Shown: in pieces, positions 6,604 to 31,000 of the stretch
Numbering within the stretch: the first letter of the stretch is position 1
Layout of the letters: each line of letters begins with the position of its first letter
Assembly: GCA_035572015.1 (NCBI GenBank)
Contig: DATNBP010000189.1
Location: 12,979 to 76,978, forward strand
Direction of reading: 5' to 3'
From: Puia sp.
GTDB lineage: Bacteria; Bacteroidota; Bacteroidia; Chitinophagales; Chitinophagaceae
DNA length: 64,000 bases
Position numbers and translations under genes: made by a program
Notes under the pieces: model-generated
The model's database searches: none
The model's input: only the letters and a program-made list of their open reading frames with translations
What the model was told of the DNA's origin: nothing

Positions 6604-6657
6604 TGGTGTTTTTCATAGGTTAGCAACGGCCGGCTCTTTCCAGGGCAGGCCTTTTTT
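6604..6657 (+). ncRNA. Candidate small RNA A (GUUUUUCAUAGG seed plus intrinsic terminator)
   Basis: GATATTTG -7-like box 6592-6599, seed GTTTTTCATAGG 6608-6619, hairpin 6628-6651, T6 run. Similar unit at 30941-31000. Confidence 0.5.
6628..6657 (+). terminator. Intrinsic terminator
   Basis: GGCCGGCTC-TTTCCA-GGGCAGGCC followed by TTTTTT. Confidence 0.7.
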
Positions 6658-6684
6658 CAAGCCTCCCCGCCGGCCAGGCCTTTT

Positions 6685-7416
6685 TCAGGCCCGCCCCGCC
6701 GGCCAGACCGGCATCCTTACGTCATGGTAGAACAAGAAGGTCCACCCTTCGCGCTGCCCCTGTTTCCACCATTCCTGTCTCAGCTCCATCGCCCGCTTAC
6801 CGTCGTAGTCGTATTTCGCCACGAAGCGGCTCTTCATCTGCTGTAACTGCGGGGCGACATCGCCGCCGAAAAACACCGTCTCGCCGCCATCCACGATCCG
6901 GAACACCTGGTGCCAGGGGCAATGCGCTCCGGTCACCTCGTAGCGGATATAGCCATCCAGCACCCCATCCCCGTCGAGGAGTACGACCTGCCGAGATGTC
7001 CGCAGACATTCCAGTTCTTCCGGGAGATAAGAAGGTGCGCCTTTTTCAAAAGCAAACTCCAGTTCCCGCCGCTGCAAATAGTATTGTGCATTCGGGAAGG
7101 ACAGCCGGCCTCCCGGGCATATCCCGCCCGCGTGGTCTTTGTGCAGGTGGCTCATCAGGACCTTGGTGACCCTTCCGGGCTGGATGCCCGCCTTTTCGAG
7201 GTTGGCATGGATCTGCAGCCCGCCCCCTTTCTGAAAACCGAGCCCGGTATCGAGGACCAGGACGTCCTCCGTCGTCAGCACCGCGAAAGGCTGGATCTCG
7301 ACGAGCAGGCTGCCCGTGGGGCGTTGCTGCAGATCGTCAATATCGCTATCAAACGGTACGAAAAGCTTGGTCTTGTCGATGGTGAACGCGCCTTCGGAAA
7401 GGGGAATGATTTGCAT
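6685..7416 (-). CDS. MBL-fold metallo-hydrolase (YtnP-like)
   Basis: LDTGLG, SHLHKDHAGG (HxHxDH), GAHCPWHQ, GGDV, YHD. Start at ATG 7416 (MQIIPLSEG). Confidence 0.88.
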   Translation of the reverse strand: MQIIPLSEGAFTIDKTKLFVPFDSDIDDLQQRPTGSLLVEIQPFAVLTTEDVLVLDTGLGFQKGGGLQIHANLEKAGIQPGRVTKVLMSHLHKDHAGGICPGGRLSFPNAQYYLQRRELEFAFEKGAPSYLPEELECLRTSRQVVLLDGDGVLDGYIRYEVTGAHCPWHQVFRIVDGGETVFFGGDVAPQLQQMKSRFVAKYDYDGKRAMELRQEWWKQGQREGWTFLFYHDVRMPVWPAGRA

Positions 7417-7453
7417 GCCGCAAAGGTAGGGGATGCGGCGCGTCGTCCGAAGT

Positions 7454-8812
7454 TTACCGAAGCACCATCTGGCGGTCGGCATCGAGCCGGACAAGGATGA
7501 AGAGCATTGTCGAAAAGGTCATCAGCGATGTGCCGCCATAACTGACAAAGGGCAGCGGGATCCCGATCACCGGCGCCAGGCCGACGGTCATACAGACGTT
7601 GATCGTGATATGGAAGAACAGCACGCTCGCGACGCCATAGGCATAACACCGGCTGAAGACGCTTCGTTGTCGCTCCGCGATCGTCACGATCCGCATGAGG
7701 AGTACGACGTAGATCCCAAGGAACAGGATGCTGCCGAGGAAGCCGAAGCCTTCGCCGACGGTGCAGAAGATGAAGTCCGTCTTTTGCTCGGGCACGAAAT
7801 CGTATCTGGTCTGGGTGCCCTTCAGGAGCCCCTTGCCGATCAGGCCGCCGCTACCGATGGCGATCTTGCTTTGTTTGACGTTGTAATTATTGTTGCTGCT
7901 TTCCTTCCTCCGGCTGCTGCTTCGTTGTTCGTTATCCAGCGCCGCGGCGGCTGCCTGGTCTTCGGGGACATAGTCCTTGCCGATGGCGTCGTAGATGCGT
8001 TTGACCTGGTAGGGTTTGAATACATGATGAAACGTCCAGGGTACCACGAACCGCTGAACGCCCACGCACACCGACCAGATACAGACGATCCCCAGCAGCA
8101 CCGTGCGGCGGCGGCGGATCAGCTTGCGTAAAAAATAAATGGCCGCGACCGCAATCCCGGTCAGTATCAGGGCGAGCGTATTGGGCTCCATCAAAAGCGT
8201 CGCGACGACCAGGACCGCAAAGGAGAAACCGATCACCAGCACCGATGGCGGCAAACCCTCCCGGAACATAACGAGGAAAAAGGAAAAATAGACCAGCGCA
8301 AGCCCTGTTTCATCCTGAAGCTTGCACAACATCGCGGGGGCCAGCGCAATGACGACCGCAATGATCTGGGCCCGCGGACGCGTAAAATTCGTTTCCACCC
8401 TCGACAGATATTTGGCAAGCGCAAGCGCGACGAAAAGCTTGCACAGGTCCGCGGGCTGCAGCTGGAATGCGCTGCCGAACCGGATGATCGACTCGGTCCC
8501 CTTGATCCGGGTGTGAAATGGAAACACCAGCAGGAGCAGGAATATCCCGAAGGCATAGCCGAGATTGGCGGTGGCCGTAAAGAATTTGCTGTCCGTCAGC
8601 AGGATAAAGGTCCCGACGATGCCCGCGATCACGAGGAAGAGCAGTTGCCGGCTGTAATCGGTCCGCAGGGAAATGAACCCCTGCACAACGTTGTCGCCCT
8701 CATGCCAGGAGGCCGCAAAGATGCTCGTCACGCCGATGACGCAAAGGATGAACCAGATCCACACGAGGGACCAGTCGACGCCTTTTGATATCGTGGGGTT
8801 TCGTTGGCTCAT
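7454..8812 (-). CDS. rodA: Rod shape-determining protein RodA (SEDS family)
   Basis: QSKIAIGSGG, FVPEQKTDFIF, GIPLPFVSYGG. Follows mrdA. Confidence 0.95.
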   Translation of the reverse strand: MSQRNPTISKGVDWSLVWIWFILCVIGVTSIFAASWHEGDNVVQGFISLRTDYSRQLLFLVIAGIVGTFILLTDSKFFTATANLGYAFGIFLLLLVFPFHTRIKGTESIIRFGSAFQLQPADLCKLFVALALAKYLSRVETNFTRPRAQIIAVVIALAPAMLCKLQDETGLALVYFSFFLVMFREGLPPSVLVIGFSFAVLVVATLLMEPNTLALILTGIAVAAIYFLRKLIRRRRTVLLGIVCIWSVCVGVQRFVVPWTFHHVFKPYQVKRIYDAIGKDYVPEDQAAAAALDNEQRSSSRRKESSNNNYNVKQSKIAIGSGGLIGKGLLKGTQTRYDFVPEQKTDFIFCTVGEGFGFLGSILFLGIYVVLLMRIVTIAERQRSVFSRCYAYGVASVLFFHITINVCMTVGLAPVIGIPLPFVSYGGTSLMTFSTMLFILVRLDADRQMVLR

Positions 8813-11136
8813 TTTGTCGGATTGGAACTGTCTTTGGGAAGATCGGCCTTATCGGGCTCCGGCCGTGCTGACGAATCCTTTCCGGTCTGTCTCCGCGACA
8901 CCCGGCGCCGCCCTGTTGAGTCTTGCTGCCCGGCACCCGCGTCTTGCTGCCCCGCGCCGGAACCGCGCTCCGCCGCGCCCGGATCGTGGCGCCGCTCCGC
9001 GGAATCCGCATGGATGGCCTGGCTATCGGCCGCCTGCTCGCGCGCCTCTTGCGCCCGAATCTTCGCCAGCCTTTCCGCCAGCGCGCTTTTATATGGCGAC
9101 GGCTTGCGGAGGTTCGCCAGGATCGGGCTCCGTGAATCTTCCGAAGTATCGAGTAACATCCGGCGATAGGCGGGATCATGGTATTTCAGCCAACGGCTGC
9201 TGTCACCGGTCTCATCGGCCCAATCCGCGGCACGGATCGAATCGGCCTCGAACTGCTTCCGGACAAGATATTTCGGCATATAATTCCGCGTGGTCAGGTC
9301 GTCTTCCAACCCGAGCCGGTCGGTGGCGATGGTGTCCCGAAGGTATTTTTCCACGAGCAGCGAGGCGATAGGCGCTGCGACGGCGCTCCCATATCCTCCG
9401 TTCTCTACGATTACCGCCACCGCGATCTTCGGGTCCTCCCGCGGCGCGAAACAGGCGAACAGCGAGTGGTTCCGCAGCTTGATCACCCGCCCGTCGATGC
9501 GCTGCTTGTTTTCCGCGGTGCCCGTCTTCGCGCACATATTGATGCCCGGGATCCGTGCGACCCGGCCGGTGCCGATCTCGGTAACGCCCTGCATACCGCT
9601 CTGGACCACCTCATAGTCTTCGTCGGAGATATGGTTGACCACCTGGTGTTTGATATGGAAGCGGCTGAGCACCGTGTCGTCTTCCGGCGAGCCTTCGATA
9701 TTCCGCACAAAGTGCGGGGTGTAGTAAAATCCTTTGTTGGCCACGATGCACATCGCGTTGGCGATCTGCAGCGGCGTCTCCTGCATCTTGTCCTGTCCGA
9801 TGCCCATCGTCACCATCGTGCAGGAGTTCCAGGAGTGATGATAATCGCGGTCATACACCGATGTATCCGGAATGTTGCCGCCGTCTTCGCTGGGCAGGTC
9901 GACCCCGAGCCGGTGGCCGAGCCCGAAACCGTTCACGTATTCCTTCCAGCGCATCAGCCCGATCCGGGGGCTGTGGAACTCGGGGTTGTCGAGCTCCAGG
10001 CGAAAGGTATTGTAGAAAAAGGAATTGCAGGAGTTCGCGATCGCGAGCCGCAGGTCCGCCGCATGGCCTGGCTTGGTTTCATCACACCGCCGGACCTCCC
10101 CGCAGCCATAATAGAAACCGCGGCAATCGATCCCGCTGGCCGGGGTGATCACGCCTTCGTCGAGCCCGATCAGCGCGCCCAGGGGTTTGTAGGTGGACCC
10201 CGGAGGATATTGTCCCTTGATGGCCCGGTTGAGGAGCGGAGCCGAGACATCGAGGACCAGCCGCGCATAGTTGGCCTGTTTGTCGGGACCGGTCAGGCTA
10301 TTGGGGTCATAGGTCGGCCCGGAAGCCATGGCCAGGATACCGCCGGTCTTGGGATCGATACAGACGATCGCGCCGGTCTTGCCGTACAACAGCCTTTCAG
10401 CGAGCTGCTGGAGTTCGATGTCGAGATAGGTATCGAGGTTCTTGCCCGCAACGGCGGGCGTATCCAGCGATTTGTCCTGGTAGCGCTCCACGAGCCGGTT
10501 CTTATTATCCTTGAGCCAGAACTCGGTGCCGCGCTGCCCCATGAGCACTTTCTCATAGGATTGCTCGAGGCCGCTCCGGCCCACGTAATCGCCCAGTTGA
10601 TAGTAATTGTTGGACCTGCGGAGGATCGCGGAATCGACTTCACCGACATATCCGGTTACCTGCGCGGCCGCATTGAAAGGGTAGATCCGGACCGGGCGTT
10701 CCTGCAGGTTGAAACCGGGGAATTTCCAAAGGTTCTCTTCCATCCGGGCGTAGATCTCCGGCGCCAGGAGGTCTTCGAAGGTAACGGCGCGGAACAGGCT
10801 GTTCCGGATCTTCGAACTGCTCATCCGGCGGCGGAACTCCGCCGTATCCATATTCATCAGTTGGCAAAAATAGGCCGTATCGAGATTCTTGACCTGGGAC
10901 GGCGTCACCATCAGGTCATAGTAGATCGTGTTGTTGAGGATGGCTCGCCCCTTCCGGTCATAGATGATCCCTCGGGTCGGGTAGATGCTTTTCCGGTATA
11001 ACGCATTTTCCTGGGCCTGCTCCTTATATTTTTTCGAGATGATCTGCAGGTGGAAAAGCTGCGCCGCAATAATGAGGAACATTCCGGCGAAGATGAGCCG
11101 GATAATGTTGCTGCGCGATTGATTGAAAACGGGCAT
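8809..11136 (-). CDS. mrdA: Penicillin-binding protein 2 with long charged/low-complexity C-terminal tail
   Basis: PTRGIIYDRKG, PPGSTYK (SxxK), SCN, KTGTAE, in mre cluster. Confidence 0.94.
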   Translation of the reverse strand: MPVFNQSRSNIIRLIFAGMFLIIAAQLFHLQIISKKYKEQAQENALYRKSIYPTRGIIYDRKGRAILNNTIYYDLMVTPSQVKNLDTAYFCQLMNMDTAEFRRRMSSSKIRNSLFRAVTFEDLLAPEIYARMEENLWKFPGFNLQERPVRIYPFNAAAQVTGYVGEVDSAILRRSNNYYQLGDYVGRSGLEQSYEKVLMGQRGTEFWLKDNKNRLVERYQDKSLDTPAVAGKNLDTYLDIELQQLAERLLYGKTGAIVCIDPKTGGILAMASGPTYDPNSLTGPDKQANYARLVLDVSAPLLNRAIKGQYPPGSTYKPLGALIGLDEGVITPASGIDCRGFYYGCGEVRRCDETKPGHAADLRLAIANSCNSFFYNTFRLELDNPEFHSPRIGLMRWKEYVNGFGLGHRLGVDLPSEDGGNIPDTSVYDRDYHHSWNSCTMVTMGIGQDKMQETPLQIANAMCIVANKGFYYTPHFVRNIEGSPEDDTVLSRFHIKHQVVNHISDEDYEVVQSGMQGVTEIGTGRVARIPGINMCAKTGTAENKQRIDGRVIKLRNHSLFACFAPREDPKIAVAVIVENGGYGSAVAAPIASLLVEKYLRDTIATDRLGLEDDLTTRNYMPKYLVRKQFEADSIRAADWADETGDSSRWLKYHDPAYRRMLLDTSEDSRSPILANLRKPSPYKSALAERLAKIRAQEAREQAADSQAIHADSAERRHDPGAAERGSGAGQQDAGAGQQDSTGRRRVSRRQTGKDSSARPEPDKADLPKDSSNPTK

Positions 11137-11191
11137 ATGGAAAAACCTGCAATTTACGAAACCAGGGGTTCACTGAAACGTTAAATCGGCT

Positions 11192-11725
11192 TTAGATCGT
11201 ATTGGTCCTGAACTTTTGTTTGCGGAAAAACAGGATCTCCGTCAGCAGCACCAGCACCAGGCTCACGGCGGTCGACGAAATGACCTTTCCGACAAAGTAA
11301 ACAAAGGACCCGAAACTCATCCATTCCAACAGAACAAGGTAAGAATGGTGTAGCAGGGTGAGCACGAGGACATAGGTTCCGTAGGGCGCCCAGCCCATGC
11401 TGACGAAGGAGGGAGCGACATAGTTCTTATCGGCGCCCTCCTGGGAGATGAGCATTCCGATCACAAAGGGCCTGACATAGGCGATCAGGGTACAGGCTGC
11501 GGCATGGAGACCGGGCGTTTTAAGGAAGTAATCCAGGCAGAGCCCGTAGATGAAGCCGATAAAGGTAATCGACATCCTCGACAGTCCGAATGGCAGCCAC
11601 AGGATGTACAGGTAATACAGGTAAGGCGTGATGAAACGATGGAGCGGCGGCATCCGGGAAAGGATAAACACCTGGACCAGGATGAAGAGGATAAAACGGA
11701 TGATATTTTTCAGCAGTTCGCTCAT
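11192..11725 (-). CDS. mreD: Rod shape-determining protein MreD
   Basis: Hydrophobic 177 aa, GLCLDYF..TPGLHAAA, between mreC and mrdA. Confidence 0.88.
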   Translation of the reverse strand: MSELLKNIIRFILFILVQVFILSRMPPLHRFITPYLYYLYILWLPFGLSRMSITFIGFIYGLCLDYFLKTPGLHAAACTLIAYVRPFVIGMLISQEGADKNYVAPSFVSMGWAPYGTYVLVLTLLHHSYLVLLEWMSFGSFVYFVGKVISSTAVSLVLVLLTEILFFRKQKFRTNTI

Positions 11726-12567
11726 TGAAGTTTCTTGCGGGTAGAGTCCTCCAGCCGCCGCTGCTCGTCAGCCTGAAGGTTTTCGTACACATAGGCAAAT
11801 TCGAGGTTGGAGAAGTTGGTGGCGGGCCGAAGCCTCAGCGAATAGAAATTCGTCGTGTTGTCGGGAACGATTTCCGTTATCGTTCCCACCATCAGGTTGG
11901 CGGGGAGAATAAAGGTGATCGGGCTCGTCTGGACAGTATCGCCCACCGCGACGCTGGCGCTCCGCGGGATCCCCCGCATCGTGAAGCTATTGGTGTTGAC
12001 GCCGTCCCAGGATACCGTGCCCGTTTCGCCGCCCTTCTTCAGTCTCGCCACCACCTTGAACTGCGGATGGAGCATGCTCATGACGATCGCGAAGTTCTCG
12101 CTTACATTGATGACCTGCCCCACGATTCCCCGGGGACCGGCCACGCCCATATTGGGCCGTACACCCTGGCGGAACCCGCGGTGGAGTGTCAGGTAGTTGG
12201 TCTTCAGGGAGGTCGTGTTGTTGACGACCTTGGCCTCCATCACGAGCCATTTGCGGACGGAGTCCGTGCGGACCGAGTCACGAAAAAGCCGCTGGGCGGA
12301 ATCAGGCGCCGCGAAGTCGTCATGCAGTTGGTTCCGCAGCTGTGCGTTCTCCTGCACCAGGGCTTCGTTGGACTTCTTCAATTGGAAGTAATACTCGATA
12401 TTGTTGTATTTCTCGTTGAGCCGGCCGGTCAGTTCCGTGCTTACGCTGAGGAAGGCGGCTTCGTGGAAACTATTGAACCGAAAGAGGAAAGACAGCGCCA
12501 CGATCTGCAACACCAGAAAGAAGAGGAAGTTGATGTGCCTTCTGATGAAGAGAAAAACGTTACGCAC
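11722..12567 (-). CDS. mreC: Rod shape-determining protein MreC
   Basis: N-terminal TM, coiled coil (LVQENAQLR), GIVGQV, VGDTVQTS. Confidence 0.92.
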   Translation of the reverse strand: MRNVFLFIRRHINFLFFLVLQIVALSFLFRFNSFHEAAFLSVSTELTGRLNEKYNNIEYYFQLKKSNEALVQENAQLRNQLHDDFAAPDSAQRLFRDSVRTDSVRKWLVMEAKVVNNTTSLKTNYLTLHRGFRQGVRPNMGVAGPRGIVGQVINVSENFAIVMSMLHPQFKVVARLKKGGETGTVSWDGVNTNSFTMRGIPRSASVAVGDTVQTSPITFILPANLMVGTITEIVPDNTTNFYSLRLRPATNFSNLEFAYVYENLQADEQRRLEDSTRKKLQ

Positions 12568-12603
12568 CGGTAGCTGGTTTATTTCGAGGTTTGCAGGAAG
12601 GCC

Positions 12604-13629
12604 CTATCGCATGACGAAGGGATACCTGTCGTAATTTTTCAGGGCGATCCCTGTTCCACGGACGACGCTCTTCAGGGGGTCGTCGGCGATATGTACGGGT
12701 AGTTTGATCTTTTGGCTCAGGCGCTTGTCCAGGCCCCGAAGCAGGGCGCCGCCACCGGTCAGGTAGAGGCCGCGCCGGTAAATATCGCCGGCCAGCTCGG
12801 GAGGTGTCGTCTCCAGCGCCTTCAGGATGGCTTCCTCGATCTTGAAGATGCTCTTGTCGAGCGCTTCAGCGATCTCCTGATAAGAAACCATGATCTGTTT
12901 GGGTATGCCTGTCACCAGGTCCCGGCCGTTAACCGGGATGTCGTCGGGTGGATTGTCGAGGTCCTTCAATGCGGCGCCGATCTGGATCTTGATCTGCTCG
13001 GCCGTCCGCTCGCCGATGAGGAGGCTGTGGTACCGCCGCAGGGCTTCCATGATGTCCGCCGTGAATTCGTCGCCTGCTATCCGGATAGACTGATCGCAGA
13101 CGATCCCCGCCAGCGCGATCACGGTGATGCCCGTGGTGCCGCCGCCGATATCGATGATCATATTTCCGACCGGCTCCTCCACGTCGATCCCGATGCCGAG
13201 CGCCGCCGCCATCGGCTCATGAATGAGGTAGACTTCCTTGGCGCCCGCCTGCTCGGCGCTGTCCCGGACGGCCCGCTTTTCGACCTCGGTGATACTGGAC
13301 GGGATACAGATCATCATTCTCCAGCTCGGCGGGAAAAGCGGCTTTTTGGGATAGATCATTTTGATCATCTCGCGGATCATCAGTTCCGCCGCGTTGAAAT
13401 CTGCGATAACGCCGTCCTTGAGGGGGCGGACGGTCCGGATACTTTCGTGGGTCTTTTCGTGCATCATCAGGGCCCGTTTGCCGACGGCGAGCACGTTCTT
13501 GGGATTATTCCGGTCAAGGGCTACGATGCTGGGCTCATTTACCACGATTTCATCATTGTGAATGATCAGGGTATTGGCGGTACCCAGGTCCATGGCTATT
13601 TCTTGCGTAAGGAAATTGAATAATCCCAT
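12604..13629 (-). CDS. mreB: Actin-like MreB
   Basis: DLGTANT, PLKDGVIADF, EPMAAALG, DIGGGTT, LTGGGALLRG. Confidence 0.97.
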   Translation of the reverse strand: MGLFNFLTQEIAMDLGTANTLIIHNDEIVVNEPSIVALDRNNPKNVLAVGKRALMMHEKTHESIRTVRPLKDGVIADFNAAELMIREMIKMIYPKKPLFPPSWRMMICIPSSITEVEKRAVRDSAEQAGAKEVYLIHEPMAAALGIGIDVEEPVGNMIIDIGGGTTGITVIALAGIVCDQSIRIAGDEFTADIMEALRRYHSLLIGERTAEQIKIQIGAALKDLDNPPDDIPVNGRDLVTGIPKQIMVSYQEIAEALDKSIFKIEEAILKALETTPPELAGDIYRRGLYLTGGGALLRGLDKRLSQKIKLPVHIADDPLKSVVRGTGIALKNYDRYPFVMR

Positions 13630-13865
13630 TTGTGTATAGGTCAGATTTTAAGTTCTAAATGGTAACGCCCTGCCGACCAAGCAGGCTGCGCCTGCTTTTG
13701 TGCAGCAAAATTGAAGGAAATAATTTGAATTAACAAGGTGAAATCCTTTATTTTCCTCCACGCCGTACGATCCCCATCAGAACGATAAAACTTTATTGAT
13801 CGTATCCCGGCGGGTTATAAAATGATTGGCTGCGGCGTTTCTCCTGCCGGCGCGTCCCGTCCTTG

Positions 13866-15146: not shown

Positions 15147-15255
15147 ACAGCCCCGAAATTCGAATTTCAGGCGCAAATTGTAAAAAAGAATTTATTTTCG
15201 GCCCCGCGAGCCTCTTCAGGCGGTTCGCCCAACCGGTCAATTAATTCCAGATTGC

Positions 15256-16923: not shown

Positions 16924-16957
16924 AAAAAGGTTGAGTTTCTAAACAAAATCACCTGGA

Positions 16958-21056: not shown

Positions 21057-21118
21057 TTCCCTTTCCCGTCGCATACCCCATTCCCTTTCCCGTCGCATAC
21101 CCCATTCCCTTTTGTCGC
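21057..21118. repeat. 24-bp tandem repeat, about 2.5 copies (TTCCCTTTCCCGTCGCATACCCCA)
   Basis: Exact copies at 21057-21080 and 21081-21104, partial degenerate third copy. Confidence 0.9.
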
Positions 21119-21183
21119 CGGATCATTTTCCGCTTCCCGCCATCCGGTCGGAAGCCCCTTTTTACAAACCAACCTGCCCCGCT

Positions 21184-22584: not shown

Positions 22585-22637
22585 TCGGAAGTCGAAAATT
22601 TTTCTGGAGTCGCCGGCGACCGGCCGCGGGGTATTGA

Positions 22638-22976
22638 TTAGAAGCGCCTCGTGGCCGTAAAGCCTTTTCCCGTCAGCCATTGCGTGACCCTGTCACGCTG
22701 ATCGCCCTGGATAATGATCAGGCCGTCTTTCACCGACCCGCCCGTACCGCAATGCGTTTTCAACTGGCGGCCCATTTCTTCAAGATCGGCCGCCGGACCG
22801 ATCCAGCCTTCGACGAAGGTGACCGCCTTCCCGGCGCGCTGCCGGGTATCCAGCCGGACTTTCAATCGCTGCTGTCGCGGCTCGGGGCGCTCCTCGGGAA
22901 CGGACTCCTCTTCCTGCCGGAAATGGGGATCCGTCGAATAGACGATGCCGTGACTGTTGGGTTTCTTCTTACTCAT
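22638..22976 (-). CDS. yciH: Translation initiation factor SUI1/YciH
   Basis: IVYSTDP, RAGKAVT, LKTHCGTGGSVKDG, IQGDQR. Confidence 0.92.
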   Translation of the reverse strand: MSKKKPNSHGIVYSTDPHFRQEEESVPEERPEPRQQRLKVRLDTRQRAGKAVTFVEGWIGPAADLEEMGRQLKTHCGTGGSVKDGLIIIQGDQRDRVTQWLTGKGFTATRRF

Positions 22977-22982
22977 TGCTTT

Positions 22983-23840: not shown

Positions 23841-23970
23841 GCCGCAAATGTAGGTAAAAAGGCCGACGGGGATGTTGAGCCGTTATCAGCGGGCCGTGGG
23901 CCGGGATCAGCCGACGCGGACCCGGCATCGGCGCAAGGCCAGGGCGCCGGCGGAAGGAAATGCGGTGTCT

Positions 23971-24357
23971 TCAGTTCACCTGGAATCGCAATTCCTGCAG
24001 TAGTTGACGGTCTCCCTTCTGCCGCGTGAACAGCGTCGTCCGGTAATCTCCGTTGCGGGTCTGCAACACCCCCACACAGTATTCGGTGCCGCCGCTGAAG
24101 CCCATCTTTCTGACCACGAAGTTGCGAACGCCATTCGTGGAAAAGAAGTCGCGGATGATCATTTCGGCCTGGATCTTACTGTAACTGTCGTTCTTATCGG
24201 GGAGGTAAATGTCGACCCGGCTGTCAAGATACCGGGAGAGTTCGCCGGCATTGCCGAGCCGGATAGCAGTAGTAATGTCGTCAAGCGAATACGTAGGGCG
24301 GAAGGAAACCAGCGTTAGCGCAAGGGTAACTGCCAGAAACCCCAGTATGCCTTTCAT
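23971..24357 (-). CDS. DUF4783-like secreted protein
   Basis: Signal peptide, AIRLGNAGELSRYL, YSKIQAEMIIRDFF, neighbour of nadC. Confidence 0.78.
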   Translation of the reverse strand: MKGILGFLAVTLALTLVSFRPTYSLDDITTAIRLGNAGELSRYLDSRVDIYLPDKNDSYSKIQAEMIIRDFFSTNGVRNFVVRKMGFSGGTEYCVGVLQTRNGDYRTTLFTRQKGDRQLLQELRFQVN

Positions 24358-24499
24358 ATAATAGAATATTAGTCGCGCTGCTTAATCCCAAATCTGTGCC
24401 AAAATGCTATTCAGGCATTAAAATACCGCTTTGCGGGTACCAACGCAGCCTATTATGCCCTACATTTGCGGCGACAACCCGATTTAAACTGCTCTTTTT

Positions 24500-26026
24500 A
24501 TGTCAAGCAAGAAGAAAGTCATCCTGGTGATCATGGACGGCTGGGGCCTGGGCAGCCAGGAATCGGCCGATGCCATCCGGCATGCCGATACGCCTTTTGT
24601 CAATTCCCTGTACGGTGCTTATCCTCATACGACGCTGGTGACATATGGCGAAGAAGTAGGGTTGCCGAAAGGCCAGATGGGCAATTCCGAGGTCGGCCAT
24701 CTCAACCTGGGCGCCGGCCGGATCGTCAACCAGGAACTCCAGCGGATCAATGTGGCCGTTCGCGATGGCTCCTTCGCCCGCAACGCCGCATTGCTGGCTG
24801 CGATCCGTGGGGCTAAGACCGCGGGCAAGCCGCTGCACCTGCTGGGCCTCGTGAGCGACGGAGGCGTGCATTCGCATCTTCGCCACCTGAAGGCGATCGT
24901 GGACTGCTGCCTGCAGGAAGGTTTGCATGAGGTGTATGTGCATGTCTTCACCGACGGCCGCGATACCGACCCGAAAAGCGGTCTTGGTTTTGTCCGCGAC
25001 CTGCAGGCCTACCTGGCGCGAACGACGGGAAAGATCGCAACCGTCAGCGGCCGCTACTACGCGATGGACCGCGACAAACGCTGGGAGCGTGTCCGGCTCG
25101 CGTATGATGCCATGGTGCTCGGGCAGGGGCCGCATTCGACGGATGCACTGGCGGCCATCGAACAATCCTATCTTTCCGGTGTAACCGACGAATTCATCAA
25201 GCCTACGGTGATCGTCGGCGAGGACGGCAATCCGCTAGCTGCTATTCGGGACGGGGACTACGCGCTTTGCTTCAATTTCCGCACCGATCGTTGTCGGGAG
25301 ATCACCGAAGTCCTGACGCAAACCGATATCCCGGACCAGGGGATGAAAAAGGTATCGCTGCACTACACGACGATGACCCAGTATGACCAGCAGTTCAGGA
25401 ACGTGCACATCATTTTTGAGAACGACGATTTGAAAAATACGCTTGGCGAGATCGTCGCCCGCAGCGGGTTACGGCAGATCCGGATCGCCGAGACCGAGAA
25501 ATATCCGCATGTCAGCTTTTTCTTCAGCGGCGGGCGGGAGCAGCCATTCGAAGGCGAGCGGCGGATCATGATCCCTTCTCCCAAAGTAGCCACCTACGAC
25601 CTGCAACCCGAAATGAGCGCAATCGAGCTGACCGACGCGATCGTGCCGGAGATCCGGAGCGGGAGCGCCGACTTTATTTGTCTCAACTATGCCAACGCCG
25701 ATATGGTCGGCCATACCGGGGTCTGGAAAGCGGCCATCAAGGCGGCCGAGACGGTCGACAAATGCGTGGAAAGGGTGGTCAATGCGGCGCTGGCAGCGGG
25801 CTACACGGTCTTCCTCACCGCCGACCATGGCAACGCCGATTTTATGATCAATGCGGACGGCACCCCGAACACCGCACACACCATGAATCCGGTCCCCCTC
25901 TTTATCATCGACAAGGTCTGGAAAGGGAAGATCCGGAGCGGGAAACTGGGTGATCTGGCGCCTACCATTTTGACAATTATGGGATTACCCATCCCACCCG
26001 AGATGACCGGCAAAGTCCTTATCTGA
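24500..26026 (+). CDS. gpmI: 2,3-bisphosphoglycerate-independent phosphoglycerate mutase
   Basis: IMDGWG, GQMGNSEVGH, SDGGVHSH, DGRDT, GRYYAMDRD, DMVGHTG, TADHGN. Confidence 0.97.
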   Translation: MSSKKKVILVIMDGWGLGSQESADAIRHADTPFVNSLYGAYPHTTLVTYGEEVGLPKGQMGNSEVGHLNLGAGRIVNQELQRINVAVRDGSFARNAALLAAIRGAKTAGKPLHLLGLVSDGGVHSHLRHLKAIVDCCLQEGLHEVYVHVFTDGRDTDPKSGLGFVRDLQAYLARTTGKIATVSGRYYAMDRDKRWERVRLAYDAMVLGQGPHSTDALAAIEQSYLSGVTDEFIKPTVIVGEDGNPLAAIRDGDYALCFNFRTDRCREITEVLTQTDIPDQGMKKVSLHYTTMTQYDQQFRNVHIIFENDDLKNTLGEIVARSGLRQIRIAETEKYPHVSFFFSGGREQPFEGERRIMIPSPKVATYDLQPEMSAIELTDAIVPEIRSGSADFICLNYANADMVGHTGVWKAAIKAAETVDKCVERVVNAALAAGYTVFLTADHGNADFMINADGTPNTAHTMNPVPLFIIDKVWKGKIRSGKLGDLAPTILTIMGLPIPPEMTGKVLI

Positions 26027-26112
26027 CGCTGGTTTCATAGGTCTTTTTTTTTCAAAGACGCAGCTTTACTTCGTTAAAATTGTCTAAATTACAGGGCAAC
26101 AACGCGGTTAGT

Positions 26113-26688
26113 ATGACCGAAGACGCCATTTTACAAGGCTGTTTGAAAAATCTGGCCAGTGCCCAACGGGAGCTGTACAACCGATACAGTCCAAAGATGC
26201 TGGCCGTCTGCTACCGGTTCGCCCACAACAGGGAAGACGCTGAGGACATGTTACAGGAAGGTTTTATCAAGGTGTTTTCCCAGATACACACCTTTCAGAA
26301 CAAAGGTGCGTTCGAAGGTTGGATCAGGCGGATCATCGTTCATACCTGTATCAACAACCTGAAAAAGAACAAGCGGTTTAACGAAAGTCTGGACATTGTG
26401 CATGCGCACGGCGTCCAGGTAAGGGAAGAAAGCGTTCCTTCGATCGTACAGGCCAAACAGATCGTGGAATGCATCCGCATCCTGCCGATCGGCTACAGGA
26501 CCGTGCTGAACCTGTACGCGATAGAAGGCTATTCTCACAGGGAGATCGCCGATATGCTGGATATCGAGGAGAGCACCAGCCGGTCGCAGTATACGAGGGC
26601 CAAACAAATGCTGGAGGATATCCTGATCCGTAAGAATATCCTGGCCAGACCGAAAGAAAAACCCGGGTGGTTGATAGCGGTCCAATGA
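26113..26688 (+). CDS. ECF RNA polymerase sigma-70 factor
   Basis: AQRELY, DAEDMLQEGF, FEGWIRRI, LPIGYRTVLNLYAIEGYSHREIA, STSRSQY. ATG 26113 preferred over TTG 26080. Confidence 0.93.
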   Translation: MTEDAILQGCLKNLASAQRELYNRYSPKMLAVCYRFAHNREDAEDMLQEGFIKVFSQIHTFQNKGAFEGWIRRIIVHTCINNLKKNKRFNESLDIVHAHGVQVREESVPSIVQAKQIVECIRILPIGYRTVLNLYAIEGYSHREIADMLDIEESTSRSQYTRAKQMLEDILIRKNILARPKEKPGWLIAVQ

Positions 26689-26727
26689 GGATCCGATCCA
26701 TGAAAACATCCAAAAACTGATTGAGCA

Positions 26728-28443
26728 ATGAAGGATAGCAGCTTCCATAGTGGCGAATTTGAAGAACTGATCAGGGAGAAGACAGAACAATATAAAATGT
26801 ACCCTTCCGAAAACGTTTGGAGGGGTGTTCACAATTCTTTACATACCAGGCGCAAGTGGTTCATCGGTTCCATGGCATTTCTGGTAACGGGGATCCTGTT
26901 CTTCTCCGGCAGGGAACTGCTGACGCCCAATCGCACCGTTACCCGCAAACTCGCTGCCAGCGCGGTTTCCATCGATAACCCCATCACGGACCCCGGCTCG
27001 GCCGCTCAACCCGAAGACAATTCCCGGAATAATTTCGTCCGCGTTCGTACTGCCGGAGCGATAGCCGGCGGCCGGCATGCCGTTGGCCCGGTACCCGCCG
27101 GGACCGACCAGCAGGAGGCGGATCAGCCGATCAATCACCTGGCCATATCCGTTAGCCACCCCGTAGTCAGCCGGCCGGACCTCTCGGAACTGCTGAGCCA
27201 GGCCGTCGCGCTACCGGGTGAAGCGCCGGCGCTGATCGCTGCCCGCGGATCGGCGGCAGGAACGATGCCGAAAGCGCCTGAGCCCTCGCAGCAGGGGACG
27301 GGATTGCTGGATAGCTGGCTCGCCCGCAACGCACCCGACAATGCCACCACGCGCCGCGCGGATGCCTCCACGGGGCGCAACGCCGCGGACGCCGGCCGCG
27401 AGACCGCCGGGATCGCCGGGTCGAGGGAATCCGGCCGCGATCTTGAAGATGATAATACGGTACGCGGTGTGCTGGAAAGCCTCAGCGCCCGGGGCGCGCA
27501 AAGAGCCCGCACGTATGGCAAGCTGGCATCCGATCAGTCGGCGCCCGGCGGGACGGCTTCCCGGACCATCCGCGATTCCTCCGGGGCCGCGCCCGTATCG
27601 GCCGGCGCGGTGGGCGAAGAATCGGACCTTTCGCGGGTCAACTGGCTCCATGACTATGCCGTATATACGCTGCCGCAAAGCCCCAACCGGGGCCGCTGGT
27701 TCATTCAGTTGAACCTCGCGCCGACCATCAATTTCCGGAACCTTTCGGGGGGCACGATGGCCCCTTCCAAGGGATCGGGCGGATCGGTCGTCAACTTTAT
27801 GCCCGGAGATGCGCAGAGCTGGGTTGATCATTCCCCGGGCTATGGTTTCGAATTCGGTGGCAACGTGCTATACCGTGCTACGCGGAACCTCACGCTGAAA
27901 GCTGGTCTCCAGTTCGACTACAGCCGCTATAAGATGCTGGCCTATACGACTGGGCCGCAGCAGCAGGGCTCGGTCTACCGGACACCGCTCGGCAACTACC
28001 TCTACATGGATTCGCTCTTCGTCGCGGCGCCCGTATCGGTCAATGGCGGCCCAATCCTGCCCAACCCCGTGCAGGCAACATTATACAACAATTATTACCA
28101 GTTGTCGGCGCCTGTCGGTTTCGAGTTGCGCGTCCTGGGCAATGAACGCTTGCAGTTCAACATCGGCGCCACCGTCCAACCCAGTTATCTGCTCAACACC
28201 GACGCCTATGTCGTGACCTCGGATTACACCAGCTACACAAAGGCGCCTTCCTTCTTCCGCAGGTGGAACGTCACGGGTGGCGTCGAGGCCTTCCTCTCCT
28301 ATCAGACCGGTCCTGTCCGCTGGCAGATCGGCCCCGAGTTCCGCTACCAGCTCTTCTCCTCCTATAACAGCGGACCCTACCCGATCAGCGAGAACCTCCG
28401 GGGGTATGGCCTGAAGATCGGGATCACGAAACCGCTGCCATAA
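26728..28443 (+). CDS. Putative anti-sigma factor: N-terminal anti-sigma-like domain, TM, disordered linker, C-terminal outer-membrane beta-barrel
   Basis: FEELIREK...PSENVWRGV, TM WFIGSMAFLVTGILFF, Ala/Gly/Pro/Ser-rich linker, alternating beta-strands (YQLSAPVGFEL, FNIGATVQPSY, WQIGPEFRYQL, YGLKIGIT). Confidence 0.7.
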   Translation: MKDSSFHSGEFEELIREKTEQYKMYPSENVWRGVHNSLHTRRKWFIGSMAFLVTGILFFSGRELLTPNRTVTRKLAASAVSIDNPITDPGSAAQPEDNSRNNFVRVRTAGAIAGGRHAVGPVPAGTDQQEADQPINHLAISVSHPVVSRPDLSELLSQAVALPGEAPALIAARGSAAGTMPKAPEPSQQGTGLLDSWLARNAPDNATTRRADASTGRNAADAGRETAGIAGSRESGRDLEDDNTVRGVLESLSARGAQRARTYGKLASDQSAPGGTASRTIRDSSGAAPVSAGAVGEESDLSRVNWLHDYAVYTLPQSPNRGRWFIQLNLAPTINFRNLSGGTMAPSKGSGGSVVNFMPGDAQSWVDHSPGYGFEFGGNVLYRATRNLTLKAGLQFDYSRYKMLAYTTGPQQQGSVYRTPLGNYLYMDSLFVAAPVSVNGGPILPNPVQATLYNNYYQLSAPVGFELRVLGNERLQFNIGATVQPSYLLNTDAYVVTSDYTSYTKAPSFFRRWNVTGGVEAFLSYQTGPVRWQIGPEFRYQLFSSYNSGPYPISENLRGYGLKIGITKPLP

Positions 28444-28463
28444 ACTTTTCGTAATTTTACCGG

Positions 28464-29078
28464 ATGAGAAATGTCTTACTGGCCGCCTGTCTCGCCGGCA
28501 TATCGCTGCTGTCCGGCGCCTGCGGCACGCATTCAGGACCGGCCGGGGACGGCCCCGCGGACTCGACGGCGCAACAGGATTCCGGCACGAAGTTCTATTT
28601 TCCGGTCGCCGACATCCTGGAGTCCGAGATCCGGACGGCTGATTCCCTGCCGATGGCAAAAAAGGAATACGTCATCCATAACGGCCGGACCGACTCCGGC
28701 TATCTCCAACCGGCGGAATTCCATGCACTGGCGATGCGGTTCCTCGCGCCGGAGTTGCGTGACGGCAGTTTTGAAAAGGATTTTACCGAAAACTCCTTTA
28801 TAGACAACACGACCCGGGAGGCCACTTTTACTTATTCCACCACCGACGCGAACCTGCCGCTCAGACGGGTCGATGTCGTGACGGCGCCGGAAGGCGCCGT
28901 CCACCGGATGAAAAGCATTTACCTGGAAAGAAAGAGGGTCTCGGGGGACAGCACCATTTTTGACAAAATGTACTGGCGGGCCGGCACTGGCTTTGAGGTC
29001 ATTAGCCTCGCCGGCAAAAAAGGCGGAACGCCGGCCGAGCAACGGTTGAAAGTGGAGTGGGGAGGAGACAATGAATAA
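28464..29078 (+). CDS. Hypothetical lipoprotein
   Basis: Lipobox LSGAC after hydrophobic signal, GC3-biased codons. Confidence 0.7.
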   Translation: MRNVLLAACLAGISLLSGACGTHSGPAGDGPADSTAQQDSGTKFYFPVADILESEIRTADSLPMAKKEYVIHNGRTDSGYLQPAEFHALAMRFLAPELRDGSFEKDFTENSFIDNTTREATFTYSTTDANLPLRRVDVVTAPEGAVHRMKSIYLERKRVSGDSTIFDKMYWRAGTGFEVISLAGKKGGTPAEQRLKVEWGGDNE

Positions 29079-29086
29079 GGAATACC

Positions 29087-30937
29087 ATGACTTCGGAACA
29101 ATTCAGCCGGATCGCAGCTACGATTCCCGTCGATCCGGGCATCTATAAGTATTTCGACGAGCAGGATGAACTGGTTTACGTGGGGAAGGCCAAGAACCTG
29201 CGCAAACGCGTCAGTTCCTACTTCACAAAGACGTTTACTACCTTCAAGACGCATGAGCTGGTGCAGCGCATCCGGCGCATCGAGTTCACGATCGTCAACT
29301 CCGAACAGGACGCTTTTCTCCTCGAGAACTCGCTCATCAAGCAATACCAGCCGAAGTTCAATATCAACCTCAAGGACGATAAGAGCTATCCCTATATCGT
29401 CATCAGGAACGAACCGTTCCCGCGCGTCTTTCTCACCCGGCGAAAGACCGGCGACGGGTCCGAATACCTCGGGCCTTATACGTCGGTGGGCAGGGTCCGG
29501 GAATTGCTCGACCTGGTCAGGGCCAACGTCCAGTTGCGAACCTGCCAGCTGAACCTCGCTGAATCGCAGATCCAAAAAGGCAAGTACAAGATCTGTCTCG
29601 AATACCACCTGGGAAACTGCAAGGGGCCCTGTGAAGGCCGGCAAACGGCGGACGATTACCAACAGGGACTGCAACAACTGCGCAACATTCTCAGGGGCAA
29701 CCTCAAACCGGTGATCCAGCAATTCAAAAAAGAAATGCGCGACCGCGCCGAAAAAATGGATTTCGAACAGGCCGAAATGATCCGGAAAAAGATCGAACAC
29801 CTCGAAAATTACGAGTCGCGGTCCGTCATCGTCAGTCGCCGCCTCAGCAACGCGGATGTATTTTCGATCGCGCGTGACGGTGATCTTGCCTATATCAACT
29901 ATTTGATGGTGGAGACGGGGACCATCGTTCAGACGCACACCACCCAGGTCGAGACACACCTGGAAGAAACGGACGAGGAGGTGCTGTCTTTTGCCGTGGC
30001 AAGGCTCCGCGAGACCTTCAACAGCGTCGCCCGCGAGCTGATCCTGCCGTTCCCGATCGAATTCCCCGAAGAGGGTGTGGAACAAACCATACCCAGGGGC
30101 GGCGACAAACGAAAGCTGCTCGAGCTCTCGCAAAAAAATGTCGCCTATTTCCGCGAGGAACTGCGAAAGAAGAAGACCCTTCAGCTGGAGGGAAAGACGG
30201 CGGACGAACGCCGGAAGGTGCTGGAGCAGCTGATGGAAGACCTCCAGTTGACGGATCTTCCCGTACATATCGAATGTTTCGACAACTCCAATTTCCAGGG
30301 AAGTTATCCCGTCTCCGCCATGGTCTGCTTCCGCGATGGTATAGAGAGCAAGAAAGACTACCGGCATTTCAACGTGAAAACCGTGCAGGGCATCAACGAT
30401 TTTGCGACGATGAAAGAAGTGGTGCACCGGCGGTACAGGCGGTTGCTCGACGAAGGGCAGTCACTGCCTCAACTGGTCATTATCGACGGCGGGAAGGGCC
30501 AGCTCGGCGCCGCGCTGGAAAGCATCGAAGAGCTCGGCATCACCGGCATGATGACGATCGTGGGCCTGGCCAAGAACGAGGAAGAGATCTTTTTCCCCGG
30601 CGACACCGAGTCGGTCAAGCTGCCCTACAACAGCGACAGCCTGCACCTGGTGCGGCGGATCCGGGACGAGGTGCACCGGTTTGGCATCAGCTTCCATCGT
30701 CAGAAACGAAGCAAGGGCACTTTTGTAAATCAACTGGAGCAAATTGAAGGGATCGGTCGTCAGACGGCCGATCTGTTGCTGAAAAAGTACCGTTCCGTCG
30801 GCCGTGTCCGCCAGGTAACGGAAGCCGAACTCTCAGCAGTCGTAGGAGCGGCAAAGGCCAGAAAGATTCGTGCTCATTTCGGGGAAATCGACAGCCCGGA
30901 AGGGCAAAAAGAGAACCCGGACGAGGGACCCCTATAA
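29087..30937 (+). CDS. uvrC: Excinuclease ABC subunit C
   Basis: PGIY..YVGKAKNLRKRVSSYF (GIY-YIG), IECFDNS, IIDGGKGQL, RDEVHRF, HhH. Confidence 0.97.
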   Translation: MTSEQFSRIAATIPVDPGIYKYFDEQDELVYVGKAKNLRKRVSSYFTKTFTTFKTHELVQRIRRIEFTIVNSEQDAFLLENSLIKQYQPKFNINLKDDKSYPYIVIRNEPFPRVFLTRRKTGDGSEYLGPYTSVGRVRELLDLVRANVQLRTCQLNLAESQIQKGKYKICLEYHLGNCKGPCEGRQTADDYQQGLQQLRNILRGNLKPVIQQFKKEMRDRAEKMDFEQAEMIRKKIEHLENYESRSVIVSRRLSNADVFSIARDGDLAYINYLMVETGTIVQTHTTQVETHLEETDEEVLSFAVARLRETFNSVARELILPFPIEFPEEGVEQTIPRGGDKRKLLELSQKNVAYFREELRKKKTLQLEGKTADERRKVLEQLMEDLQLTDLPVHIECFDNSNFQGSYPVSAMVCFRDGIESKKDYRHFNVKTVQGINDFATMKEVVHRRYRRLLDEGQSLPQLVIIDGGKGQLGAALESIEELGITGMMTIVGLAKNEEEIFFPGDTESVKLPYNSDSLHLVRRIRDEVHRFGISFHRQKRSKGTFVNQLEQIEGIGRQTADLLLKKYRSVGRVRQVTEAELSAVVGAAKARKIRAHFGEIDSPEGQKENPDEGPL

Positions 30938-30940
30938 TAC

Positions 30941-30975
30941 AAAAGGGGCCCGGATAGATATCCAGCCCCGTTTTT
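30941..30975. terminator. Probably bidirectional intrinsic terminator (uvrC on +, candidate sRNA on -)
   Basis: AAAA-GGGGCCCGGA-TAGATA-TCCAGCCCC-GTTTTT. Confidence 0.75.
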
Positions 30976-31000
30976 AAAATCCAATATCCTATGAAAAACC
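30941..31000 (-). ncRNA. Candidate small RNA C (5' GGUUUUUCAUAGG seed plus intrinsic terminator)
   Basis: TTG-N19-TACTTTTA promoter (31034..31005). Transcript GGTTTTTCATAGGATATTGGATTTTAAAAAC-GGGGCTGGA-TATCTA-TCCGGGCCCC-TTTT. Lies downstream of the gldN terminator. Confidence 0.58.

What the first reader, a model, noticed from the sequence alone, without database searches (positions are those of the whole stretch)
6604..31000. Candidate sRNA family with an anti-start-codon seed (GUUUUUCAUAGG), two dispersed copies with shared architecture
Seen: intergenic regions 6604-6657 (+) and 31000-30941 (-) share an exact 12-mer, GTTTTTCATAGG. In both it follows a -7-like box plus ACT(T)GG and precedes a short linker, a 9-10 bp GC stem with a similar loop (UUUCCA vs UAUCUA) and a U-run. 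The stem sequences differ while the structure is kept. The seed is the reverse complement of CCU-AUG-AAA-AAC, i.e. a Met-Lys-(Lys/Asn) start. Established: Bacteroidota mostly lack Shine-Dalgarno sites, rely on A-rich context around AUG, and many of their exported proteins begin MKK/MKN. Inference: a multicopy sRNA family that occludes start codons of envelope/secreted-protein mRNAs, analogous to MicA/RybB but reading the AUG itself. Both copies sit at the end of envelope loci (an ECF operon and the T9SS/gliding motor operon). I do not recognise this as a named family, but could not search. AUGAAAAA is a common start, so target matches alone are weak evidence.
Basis: partly seen in the sequence, partly recalled or inferred. 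Interest (0 to 1): 0.8.

Follow-up and report, generated by a model that had tools for sequence, protein, structure and literature searches.

The report
FopS-like small RNA genes, Chitinophagaceae
The two flagged spots are real, highly conserved genes for roughly 55-base regulatory RNAs. Their free 5' end mirrors a start codon, as in the FopS RNAs of gut Bacteroides, so this is a new branch of a known kind of regulator rather than a new kind.

Summary
Both sites are compact units of promoter, 5' single strand and terminator that share GTTTTTCATAGG.

Copy 2 (31000-30941, minus strand) is one of 9 copies in this genome. I call this family "type I". It occurs in 24 of 24 genomes of the genus and in 103 of 150 high-quality genomes of the family. 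Its hairpin covaries. Its place between gldN and uvrC is conserved across genera.

Copy 1 (6605-6657, plus strand) is a second subfamily, "type II". It is nearly invariant in the genus and is present in 72 of 150 family genomes.

Conservation starts exactly at the predicted +1. Two different promoter types, a Bacteroidota -7 box and a sigma-54 -24/-12 promoter, both aim at that same base.

Both sites give full-length hits to Rfam RF04319 (FopS), but the scores are below that family's threshold. In the reverse test, my model places its best hit on all 10 genuine FopS genes tested. The first 24 nt are about 80% identical to FopS.

It is inferred here, not shown. No conserved target was found, and susC starts are not enriched. 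The gldK start region is a moderate lead.

Earlier agents of this scan reported the same family on other Chitinophagaceae genomes.

Verdict: a real new member of a known kind, of moderate interest.

The parts
6605..6657 (+). Predicted type II small RNA (copy 1), about 53 nt: a 5' single strand GGUGUUUUUCAUAGGUUAGCAAC, then a hairpin and U6. The exact +1 (6604-6606) is inferred.
   Evidence: RNAfold leaves the first 23 nt unpaired ahead of the hairpin. The body is nearly invariant in 24 genomes of the genus, while both flanks diverge. It is 85-97% identical in 72/150 family genomes.
6592..6599 (+). -7 promoter box GATATTTG of copy 1. Other genera have TATCTTTG or TATATTTG at this place.
   Evidence: Invariant in the genus alignment. 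Canonical TAnnTTTG sits at the same position in other genera.
6608..6619 (+). Shared 12-mer seed GTTTTTCATAGG, copy 1.
6628..6657 (+). Terminator of copy 1: GGCC-G-GCUCU / loop UUCC / AGGGC-A-GGCC, followed by U6.
   Evidence: The few substitutions in relatives lie in the loop or at the G.A mismatch, or they keep the pairing.
6531..6591 (+). Block upstream of copy 1 that is conserved within the genus (ATAGACC..TTT..CAATTGACCGAT.AATTTTA). Probably a regulatory region; function unknown.
30941..31000 (-). Predicted type I small RNA (copy 2), 60 nt: GGUUUUUCAUAGGAUAUUGGAUUUUAAAAAC, then a hairpin and U4.
   Evidence: Scores 84 bits with model R1. It is one of 9 copies in this genome. Conservation begins at the GG.
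31005..31012 (-). -7 box TACTTTTA of copy 2, ending 4 nt before the GG. A -33 TTG lies at 31034-31032 (N19 spacing).
   Evidence: Of 118 upstream regions from the family, 68 have a -7 box, and 63 of those end exactly 4 nt before the GG.
30988..30999 (-). Shared 12-mer seed GTTTTTCATAGG, copy 2.
30941..30969 (-). Terminator of copy 2: hairpin at 30969-30945 and U-run at 30944-30941. Read on the plus strand it also serves as the terminator of the convergent uvrC gene.
   Evidence: Across 57 distinct family members, 7 of 9 stem pairs show compensatory changes and 96% of cells are paired; 0 of 500 shuffles do as well.
31035..31050 (-). Inverted repeat TACCC-N6-GGGTA just upstream of, and abutting, the -33 element of copy 2. 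Possibly an operator.
   Evidence: It recurs upstream of many orthologous copies. Not tested further.
36131..36165 (-). Candidate target site: the gldK leader and start, CCCAAUACCC...AUGAAAAUGAAAAACC. The stretch AUGAAAAACC is a perfect 10-nt match to the small RNA's 5' end.
   Evidence: Duplex energy -20.0 kcal/mol, ranking 14-17 of 3350 start regions. No shuffled seed out of 500 reaches it. The energy is similar in 6 of the 9 other genomes where the start could be read. This is a lead only.

Best explanation
Both sites are independent genes for short (about 53 and 60 nt) trans-acting small RNAs of a Chitinophagaceae-wide family. Each has the build of the FopS RNAs of Bacteroides: its own promoter, an unstructured and highly conserved 5' segment, and a Rho-independent terminator.

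The conserved 5' segments are:
- type I: GGUUUUUCAUAGGAUAUUGGAUUU
- type II: GGUGUUUUUCAUAGGUUAGCAAC

Most likely the 5' segment pairs with start regions of mRNAs across or next to AUG, of the form AUGAAAAA(C). These are mostly mRNAs for exported or envelope proteins. Pairing would block initiation in a phylum that lacks Shine-Dalgarno-guided initiation. Small RRM proteins may modulate the effect.

Shown here: the genes' anatomy, their conservation, hairpin covariation, the promoter geometry and the resemblance to FopS. Inferred: transcription, base pairing, repression, and the identity of the targets.
For: 1. It is a family, not a chance match. There are 9 type I copies in this genome. The family is in 24/24 genus genomes with 4-12 copies each, and in 103/150 high-quality genomes and 93/135 genera of the family. 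An exact 20-mer occurs in at least 120 contigs, nearly all labelled Chitinophagaceae or broader Bacteroidota/Sphingobacteriales groups.
2. Type II is nearly invariant in 24 genus genomes, with sharp boundaries at the -7 box and after the U-run. It is present in 72/150 family genomes.
3. Alignment columns 1-2 vary, while columns 3-26 are at least 93% identical. Part of that alignment was selected through an exact 20-mer, which inflates this figure.
4. Two promoter types point at the same +1. A -7 box ends 4 nt before the GG in 63 regions (68 of 118 have the box; random rate 1.5%). A sigma-54-type YGGYAY-N5-TTGN ends 12 nt before the GG in 9 of 10 cases (random rate 0.01%). rpoN is present in the genome.
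5. The terminator helix covaries.
6. The link to FopS holds in both directions. RF04319 aligns over its full length to both window sites, at 18.8 and 14.3 bits. Model R1 puts its best hit on all 10 true FopS genes. Intermediate forms in this genome (C130 at 30 bits, and C246) bridge the two families.
7. FopS has been shown experimentally to bind next to susC start codons and block translation, with RbpB counteracting it (PMC11697453).
8. The genome has 9 small RRM_1 proteins.
9. The real seeds give about 4 times more strong duplexes with start regions than shuffled seeds do. Genes starting ATGAAAAA are 78% signal-peptide-like.
Against:
- No conserved target was found. The top hits (a GT1 gene at -26.7 kcal/mol, and the gene after an MBOAT gene at -26.5) lose their complementarity in orthologues.
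- susC start regions are not enriched.
- Perfect 12-nt target sites occur at about the control rate.
- CAU is altered in 4 of the 9 own-genome type I copies.
- Scores against RF04319 are far below its gathering threshold (56 bits), and scores that low also occur in unrelated control genomes.
- The excess of strong duplexes partly follows from the seed containing the complement of a common start sequence.
- The near-invariance of the type II hairpin suggests a constraint beyond termination, such as a protein partner.
Confidence: 0.6

Rival explanations
1. The RNAs are real but act mainly as ligands or sponges of small RRM-type RNA-binding proteins (RbpB-like). The conserved 5' segment would be a protein-binding motif rather than a pairing seed.
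For: RbpB binds the 5' part of FopS. This genome has 9 RRM_1 proteins. No conserved mRNA target was found. The whole type II body, including the stem sequence, is nearly invariant.
Against: In Bacteroides the same segment was shown to pair with targets by compensatory mutations (PMC11697453). The segment is predicted to be unstructured, and it matches start regions better than shuffled versions do.
Confidence: 0.15
2. The type I copy behind gldN is a dedicated feedback regulator of the gldKLMN (T9SS/gliding motor) operon. It would pair with the gldK start region, with the other copies being redundant paralogues.
For: The order gldN, then the small RNA, then convergent uvrC is conserved in at least 20 loci from several genera. 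The gldK start-region duplex of -20.0 kcal/mol ranks 14-17 of 3350, and 0/500 shuffled seeds reach it. A similar energy is seen in 6 of the 9 other genomes where the start could be read.
Against: The seed is common to all paralogues. Part of the predicted duplex lies upstream of the likely gldK transcription start. The match is lost in 3 of those 9 genomes. Conservation of AUGAAAAACC could reflect the signal peptide rather than the RNA. About 15 other genes score as well.
Confidence: 0.12
3. These are DNA-level repeats (bidirectional terminator modules or REP/MITE-like elements) with no RNA function of their own.
For: Six of the nine own-genome copies face a convergent gene, and the hairpin can terminate transcription from both directions. 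A partial inverted copy sits inside the MBOAT operon.
Against: The element is strongly asymmetric. Promoters of two kinds sit at exact spacing on one side. Conservation is highest in the non-hairpin 5' segment. There are no terminal repeats or target-site duplications. Positions are orthologous across genera.
Confidence: 0.06
4. The opposite-strand ATG (CCT-ATG-AAA-AAC) starts small proteins, and those are what is expressed.
For: Every copy that has CAT has an opposite-strand ATG AAA AAC.
Against: The opposite-strand reading frames run only 6-29 codons and share nothing beyond MKN. The ATG is absent in 4 of 9 copies. The promoter boxes are on the other strand.
Confidence: 0.03

Closest known systems
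FopS, the family of paralogous sRNAs of Bacteroides thetaiotaomicron (Rfam RF04319; Ruettiger et al. 2025, PMC11697453)
   Same: Multicopy. An unstructured 5' seed is followed directly by a Rho-independent terminator. The RNAs are short. Most copies have housekeeping Bacteroidota promoters. The first 24 nt are about 80% identical (FopS UGUGUUUUUCAUAG--UAUUAGAUUU against ucGGuUUUUCAUAGGAUAUUGGAUUU). The covariance-model hits are reciprocal. Small RRM proteins are encoded in the genome.
   Different: Scores of 14-30 bits are well under the 56-bit cut-off. The linker is shorter, the stems are richer in GC, and the RNAs are 53-60 nt rather than 65-70 nt. The taxonomic ranges do not overlap: RF04319 was found in 3 other families and in 0/9 genomes of this one, while R1 was found in 0/141 genomes outside this family. 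Some paralogues have sigma-54 promoters. There is no susC signal in this genome. Expression, RbpB binding and targets are all untested. Homology cannot be told apart from convergence on the same start-region sequence.
GibS sRNA of B. thetaiotaomicron (as described in PMC11697453 and PMC13750123)
   Same: It carries the R1 seed that FopS also has, and it binds translation initiation regions.
   Different: GibS is 145 nt long, has a second seed (R2) and a non-canonical promoter, and is single-copy. No Rfam family other than FopS, GibS included, gave a co-located full-length hit at both sites.
MicA/RybB-type envelope-stress sRNAs of Enterobacteria
   Same: Trans-acting repressors with a 5' seed that act on many envelope-protein mRNAs.
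   Different: By general knowledge, those are sigma-E-dependent and Hfq-dependent, and Bacteroidota lack Hfq. There is no sequence relationship: only chance-level Rfam hits such as MicC at 12-17 bits. One copy here follows an ECF sigma operon, but control by that sigma factor was not tested.

Membership tests
FopS (Rfam RF04319) | Score at or above Rfam's gathering threshold (56 bits) | tested here: not met
   Copy 1 scores 18.8 bits and copy 2 scores 14.3 bits. The best hit in the genome is 30 bits. At the default gathering search nothing is reported at either site.
FopS (Rfam RF04319) | Conserved single-stranded 5' seed (R1/R1') of consensus GUGUUUUUCAUgGUAUUAGAUUU | tested here: met
   The Rfam consensus aligns to both sites from model position 1. 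R1 aligns to 10/10 true FopS genes as the best hit in each locus. The 5' end is unpaired in the type II fold, and only weakly paired in the type I fold.
FopS (Rfam RF04319) | Rho-independent terminator hairpin directly after the seed and linker | tested here: met
FopS (Rfam RF04319) | Many paralogous copies per genome, each with its own canonical Bacteroidota promoter | tested here: met
   This genome has 9 type I copies, 1 type II copy and at least 3 variants. A -7 box is present in 68/118 upstream regions. One difference from FopS: a subset has sigma-54-type promoters.
FopS (Rfam RF04319) | Pairs next to the start codon of susC-type (first PUL gene) mRNAs and represses translation | tested here: inconclusive
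   In silico only. The start regions of 31 of the 33 SusC/RagA genes were examined, and none stands out (-7 to -15 kcal/mol against a genome mean of -10.5). No experiment was possible.
FopS (Rfam RF04319) | Bound and antagonised by the RRM protein RbpB | not testable with these tools
   Only presence could be checked: 9 RRM_1 proteins are encoded.
FopS (Rfam RF04319) | Expressed as discrete transcripts of about 65-70 nt | not testable with these tools
The predicted lengths here are 53-60 nt.
Type I Chitinophagaceae family (model R1, built here) | Significant full-length match to R1 | tested here: met
   Copy 2 scores 84.4 bits. Copy 1 does not match at all, so it is filed as a separate subfamily, type II.

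The most novel reading that the evidence does not exclude
FopS-type RNAs that mask start codons would not be a Bacteroidaceae speciality. They would be an old layer of translational control, spread across the phylum, in bacteria that lack Shine-Dalgarno sites. In Chitinophagaceae this would mean two deeply conserved subfamilies. Their paralogues would be wired to different sigma factors (housekeeping and sigma-54). One positionally fixed copy behind gldKLMN would feed back on gldK, tying control by a small RNA to the T9SS/gliding motor.
Probability: 0.15. Interest if true: 0.7.

Novelty: new member of a known kind. Interest (0 to 1): 0.5.

Why it matters
Post-transcriptional control in Bacteroidota outside the gut genera is almost unmapped. 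FopS has been reported only in Bacteroidaceae (PMC11697453), and no paper in the held library links it with Chitinophagaceae.

A family with the same seed and build turns up in about two thirds of the Chitinophagaceae genomes sampled, and it is conserved more strictly than the neighbouring proteins. That suggests occluding the start codon with a small RNA is a general strategy in a phylum that lacks Shine-Dalgarno-guided initiation.

The finding also yields concrete objects to test: two subfamilies with exact predicted 5' ends, paralogues with sigma-54 versus housekeeping promoters, and a candidate link to gldK.

Tried and rejected
- **Chance 12-mer.** Rejected. The genome holds 6 copies against about 0.3 expected, and all six are in units with the build of a small RNA.
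- **Opposite-strand MKN peptides.** Rejected. The frames are short and not conserved, and the ATG is lost in some copies.
- **Same-strand coding.** Rejected. Type II has no AUG, and indels in the type I linker break any reading frame.
- **susC as the target class, as for FopS.** No signal in this genome.
- **Top in-silico targets.** The glycosyltransferase gene in contig C89 and the gene after an MBOAT gene in contig C18 are not conserved as targets. The C18 site looks like a partial inverted copy of the element that was inserted in this genome only.
- **Perfect 12-nt target sites in the genus.** They occur at about the control rate.
- **Copy 1 as a member of the type I model.** Not detected. 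It is related only through the shared seed and through the C236/C138 copies, which share UAGCAACGGCC with it.
- **Weak 5' helix GUUUUU/AAAAAC in the copy 2 fold.** Not pursued. It is not evident in the variant copies.
- **Contigs C218:1771-1844 and C79:20947-21031** (weak RF04319 hits). They lack the seed and were not counted.
Full report
**What is at the coordinates.** The 12-mer GTTTTTCATAGG lies at 6608-6619 (+) and at 30999-30988 (-), and nowhere else in the window.

- Copy 1 has a -7-type box GATATTTG (6592-6599) followed by AACTT. Then comes GGTGTTTTTCATAGGTTAGCAAC, a hairpin (6628-6651) and T6.
- Copy 2 has TTG (31034-31032), a 19-nt spacer, TACTTTTA (31012-31005) and CACT. Then comes GGTTTTTCATAGGATATTGGATTTTAAAAAC, a hairpin (30969-30945) and T4.

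RNAfold leaves the first 23 nt of copy 1 unpaired. For copy 2 it predicts only a weak 5' helix ahead of the terminator.

An ECF sigma factor (4543-5094) and two unassigned ORFs lie upstream of copy 1, and a metallo-beta-lactamase-fold gene converges on it. The genes gldK, gldL, gldM and gldN lie upstream of copy 2, and uvrC converges on it. gldN has its own terminator at 31137-31105.

**More than chance.** A shared 12-mer in 64 kb is weak evidence on its own. The genome in which the window lies settles the matter. The 12-mer occurs six times in 4.39 Mb, against about 0.3 expected from base composition. All six are non-coding and are followed by a hairpin and a T-run. The 11-mer TTTTTCATAGG occurs 15 times: 7 are in such units, 8 are inside genes, and none is at a gene start.

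**Two subfamilies.**

*Type I.* nhmmer and a covariance model (R1, built from alignment A1) find nine full-length copies of a 67-nt unit in this genome. Copy 2 is one of them.
- Type I is in 24/24 genus genomes, with 4-12 copies each.
- It is in 103/150 high-quality genomes and 93/135 genera of the family.
- It is in 0/141 genomes outside the family in a sample of the phylum.
- An exact 20-mer of its seed occurs in at least 120 contigs. Named examples include Flavisolibacter, Ferruginibacter, Puia, Segetibacter, Sediminibacterium and Longitalea arenae, along with many MAGs labelled only at family level or above.
- In an alignment of 57 distinct members, columns 1-2 vary and columns 3-26 (GGTTTTTCATAGGATATTGGATTT) are at least 93% identical. 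Part of that set was chosen through the 20-mer, which inflates the figure.
- The hairpin covaries. Seven of nine pairs show compensatory changes, 96% of cells are paired, and 0 of 500 shuffles do as well.

*Type II.* Copy 1 is not detected by R1.
- It is nearly invariant in 24 genus genomes whose flanking coding DNA is only 68-80% identical. Conservation starts at the -7 box and stops after the T-run.
- It recurs at 85-97% identity in 72/150 family genomes, in unrelated flanking sequence.
- Own-genome type I copies C236 and C138 share UAGCAACGGCC with copy 1. Variants C130, C14 and C246 carry the same seed with other linkers.

**Evidence for independent transcription units.** Of 118 distinct regions upstream of type I copies, 68 have TAnnTT[TC][GAC]. 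In 63 of those the box ends exactly 4 nt before the conserved GG; the random rate is 1.5%.

Ten more, by a strict pattern (and more by eye), have a sigma-54-type YGGYAY-N5-TTGN ending 12 nt before the same GG. The random rate is 0.01%. Own-genome copy C201 is of this kind, and the genome encodes RpoN.

Two unrelated promoter geometries therefore converge on the base where conservation begins. This is the strongest sequence-only argument for a transcript that starts at GG.

Opposite-strand ORFs run 6-29 codons and are not conserved. The ATG is lost in 4 of 9 copies.

**Relation to known families.** No Rfam family reaches its gathering score at either site. With permissive thresholds, both sites give full-length alignments to RF04319, the FopS family of Bacteroides thetaiotaomicron: 18.8 and 14.3 bits against a cut-off of 56. 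The Rfam consensus begins GUGUUUUUCAUgGUAUUAGAUUU.

On the whole genome, the best RF04319 hit is variant C130 at 30 bits, and four of the top six hits are units that carry the seed. Scores this low also occur in unrelated control genomes.

The reverse test also holds. RF04319 exceeds its cut-off in 4 of 151 genomes sampled across the phylum, from three other families. R1 places its best hit on the FopS gene in all ten of those loci, at 8-17 bits.

The shared part is the first 24 nt, at about 80% identity with one 2-nt gap. The linker and stem differ. Homology and convergence on the same start-region sequence cannot be told apart.

**The published mechanism.** FopS RNAs are 14 paralogues of about 65-70 nt. 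Each has a single-stranded 5' seed and a terminator, and is transcribed from a canonical promoter. They bind next to the start codon of susC mRNAs and block translation in vitro and in vivo, as shown with compensatory mutations. The RRM protein RbpB counteracts them. They were reported as conserved within Bacteroidaceae (PMC11697453; review PMC13750123). No paper in the held library links FopS with Chitinophagaceae.

**Targets (in silico only).** This genome has 33 SusC/RagA genes and 9 small RRM_1 proteins.

Against about 3350 predicted start regions, the real seeds give roughly four times (type I) and two and a half times (type II) more duplexes at or below -18 kcal/mol than shuffled seeds do. 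This partly follows from the seed containing the complement of AUGAAAAA.

Seventy-six predicted genes start ATGAAAAA. Of these, 78% look like signal-peptide proteins, against 25% of other genes, by a crude predictor.

- susC start regions do not stand out.
- The top hits are a GT1 gene for type II (-26.7 kcal/mol) and, for type I, the gene after an MBOAT gene (-26.5).
- Both lose their complementarity in orthologues, although the RNAs themselves are conserved.
- Perfect 12-nt target sites are not enriched in the genus.

The one lead is gldK.
- The arrangement gldN, then the small RNA, then convergent uvrC is conserved in at least 20 loci from several genera.
- The gldK leader and start (CCCAAUACCC...AUGAAAAUGAAAAACC, 36165-36131) pairs with the type I seed at -20.0 kcal/mol.
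- That ranks 14-17 of 3350, no shuffled seed out of 500 reaches it, and the energy is similar in 6 of the 9 other genomes where the start could be read.
- Part of the predicted duplex lies upstream of the likely transcription start, so this remains a lead only.

**Limits.** Gene starts were predicted with my own crude caller.

**Earlier notes of this scan.** Other agents had already described the same FopS-like family on other Chitinophagaceae genomes, including the position between gldN and uvrC. I reached the FopS link independently and re-tested the synteny and the gldK idea here.

**Verdict.** This is a new member of a known kind, of moderate interest.

Noticed in passing
L001:2945-3003 (own genome C201:18195-18253) and loci L011, L013, L015, L025, L027, L028, L069, L102, L103: A subset of type I paralogues has a sigma-54-type -24/-12 promoter (for example CCGGCACGCCCATTGCC or TTGGTATATGACTTGCA) ending 12 nt before the conserved GG, in place of the Bacteroidota -7 box. 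The genome encodes RpoN (two Sigma54_DBD matches).
   Followed up: partly
window 31035-31050 (-) and upstream of many orthologous copies: An inverted repeat TACCC-N6-GGGTA abuts the -33 element of the copy behind gldN. The half-site AATACCC also occurs in the gldK leader (36162-36156). This may be a shared operator.
   Followed up: no
window 6531-6591: A conserved genus-level block (ATAGACC..TTT..CAATTGACCGAT.AATTTTA) lies between the stop codon of the 139-aa ORF and the -7 box of copy 1. It could be a regulatory region, perhaps dependent on the ECF sigma factor.
   Followed up: partly
window 6665-6709: The direct repeat CCCCGCCGGCCAG(G/A)CC occurs twice, 29 nt apart, just downstream of copy 1's terminator. 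It overlaps the 3' end of the convergent metallo-beta-lactamase-fold ORF.
   Followed up: no
L189:2743-2775 (own genome C18:5242-5274): A 33-nt insertion found only in this genome lies between an MBOAT gene and the next gene. It carries AATCCAATATC-ATGAAAAACC, a near-perfect reverse complement of the type I seed. It looks like a partial inverted copy of the element that creates a 22-nt 'target' site.
   Followed up: partly
L048:79-280 and L066:3379-3658: In other Chitinophagaceae genomes, type I copies occur as tandem pairs 135-215 nt apart. In L048 the pair lies next to gldN.
   Followed up: no
window 57251-57470 (+) and 60159-60230 (+): A cobalamin riboswitch (84.7 bits) and a tRNA gene, both found in the Rfam gathering scan.
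   Followed up: no
own genome C110:40753-40811 and 39576-39627: Weak, degenerate matches to the type I seed (a tandem GATATTGGATTTTAA and AGGATATTGGAATC). These may be decayed copies.
   Followed up: no
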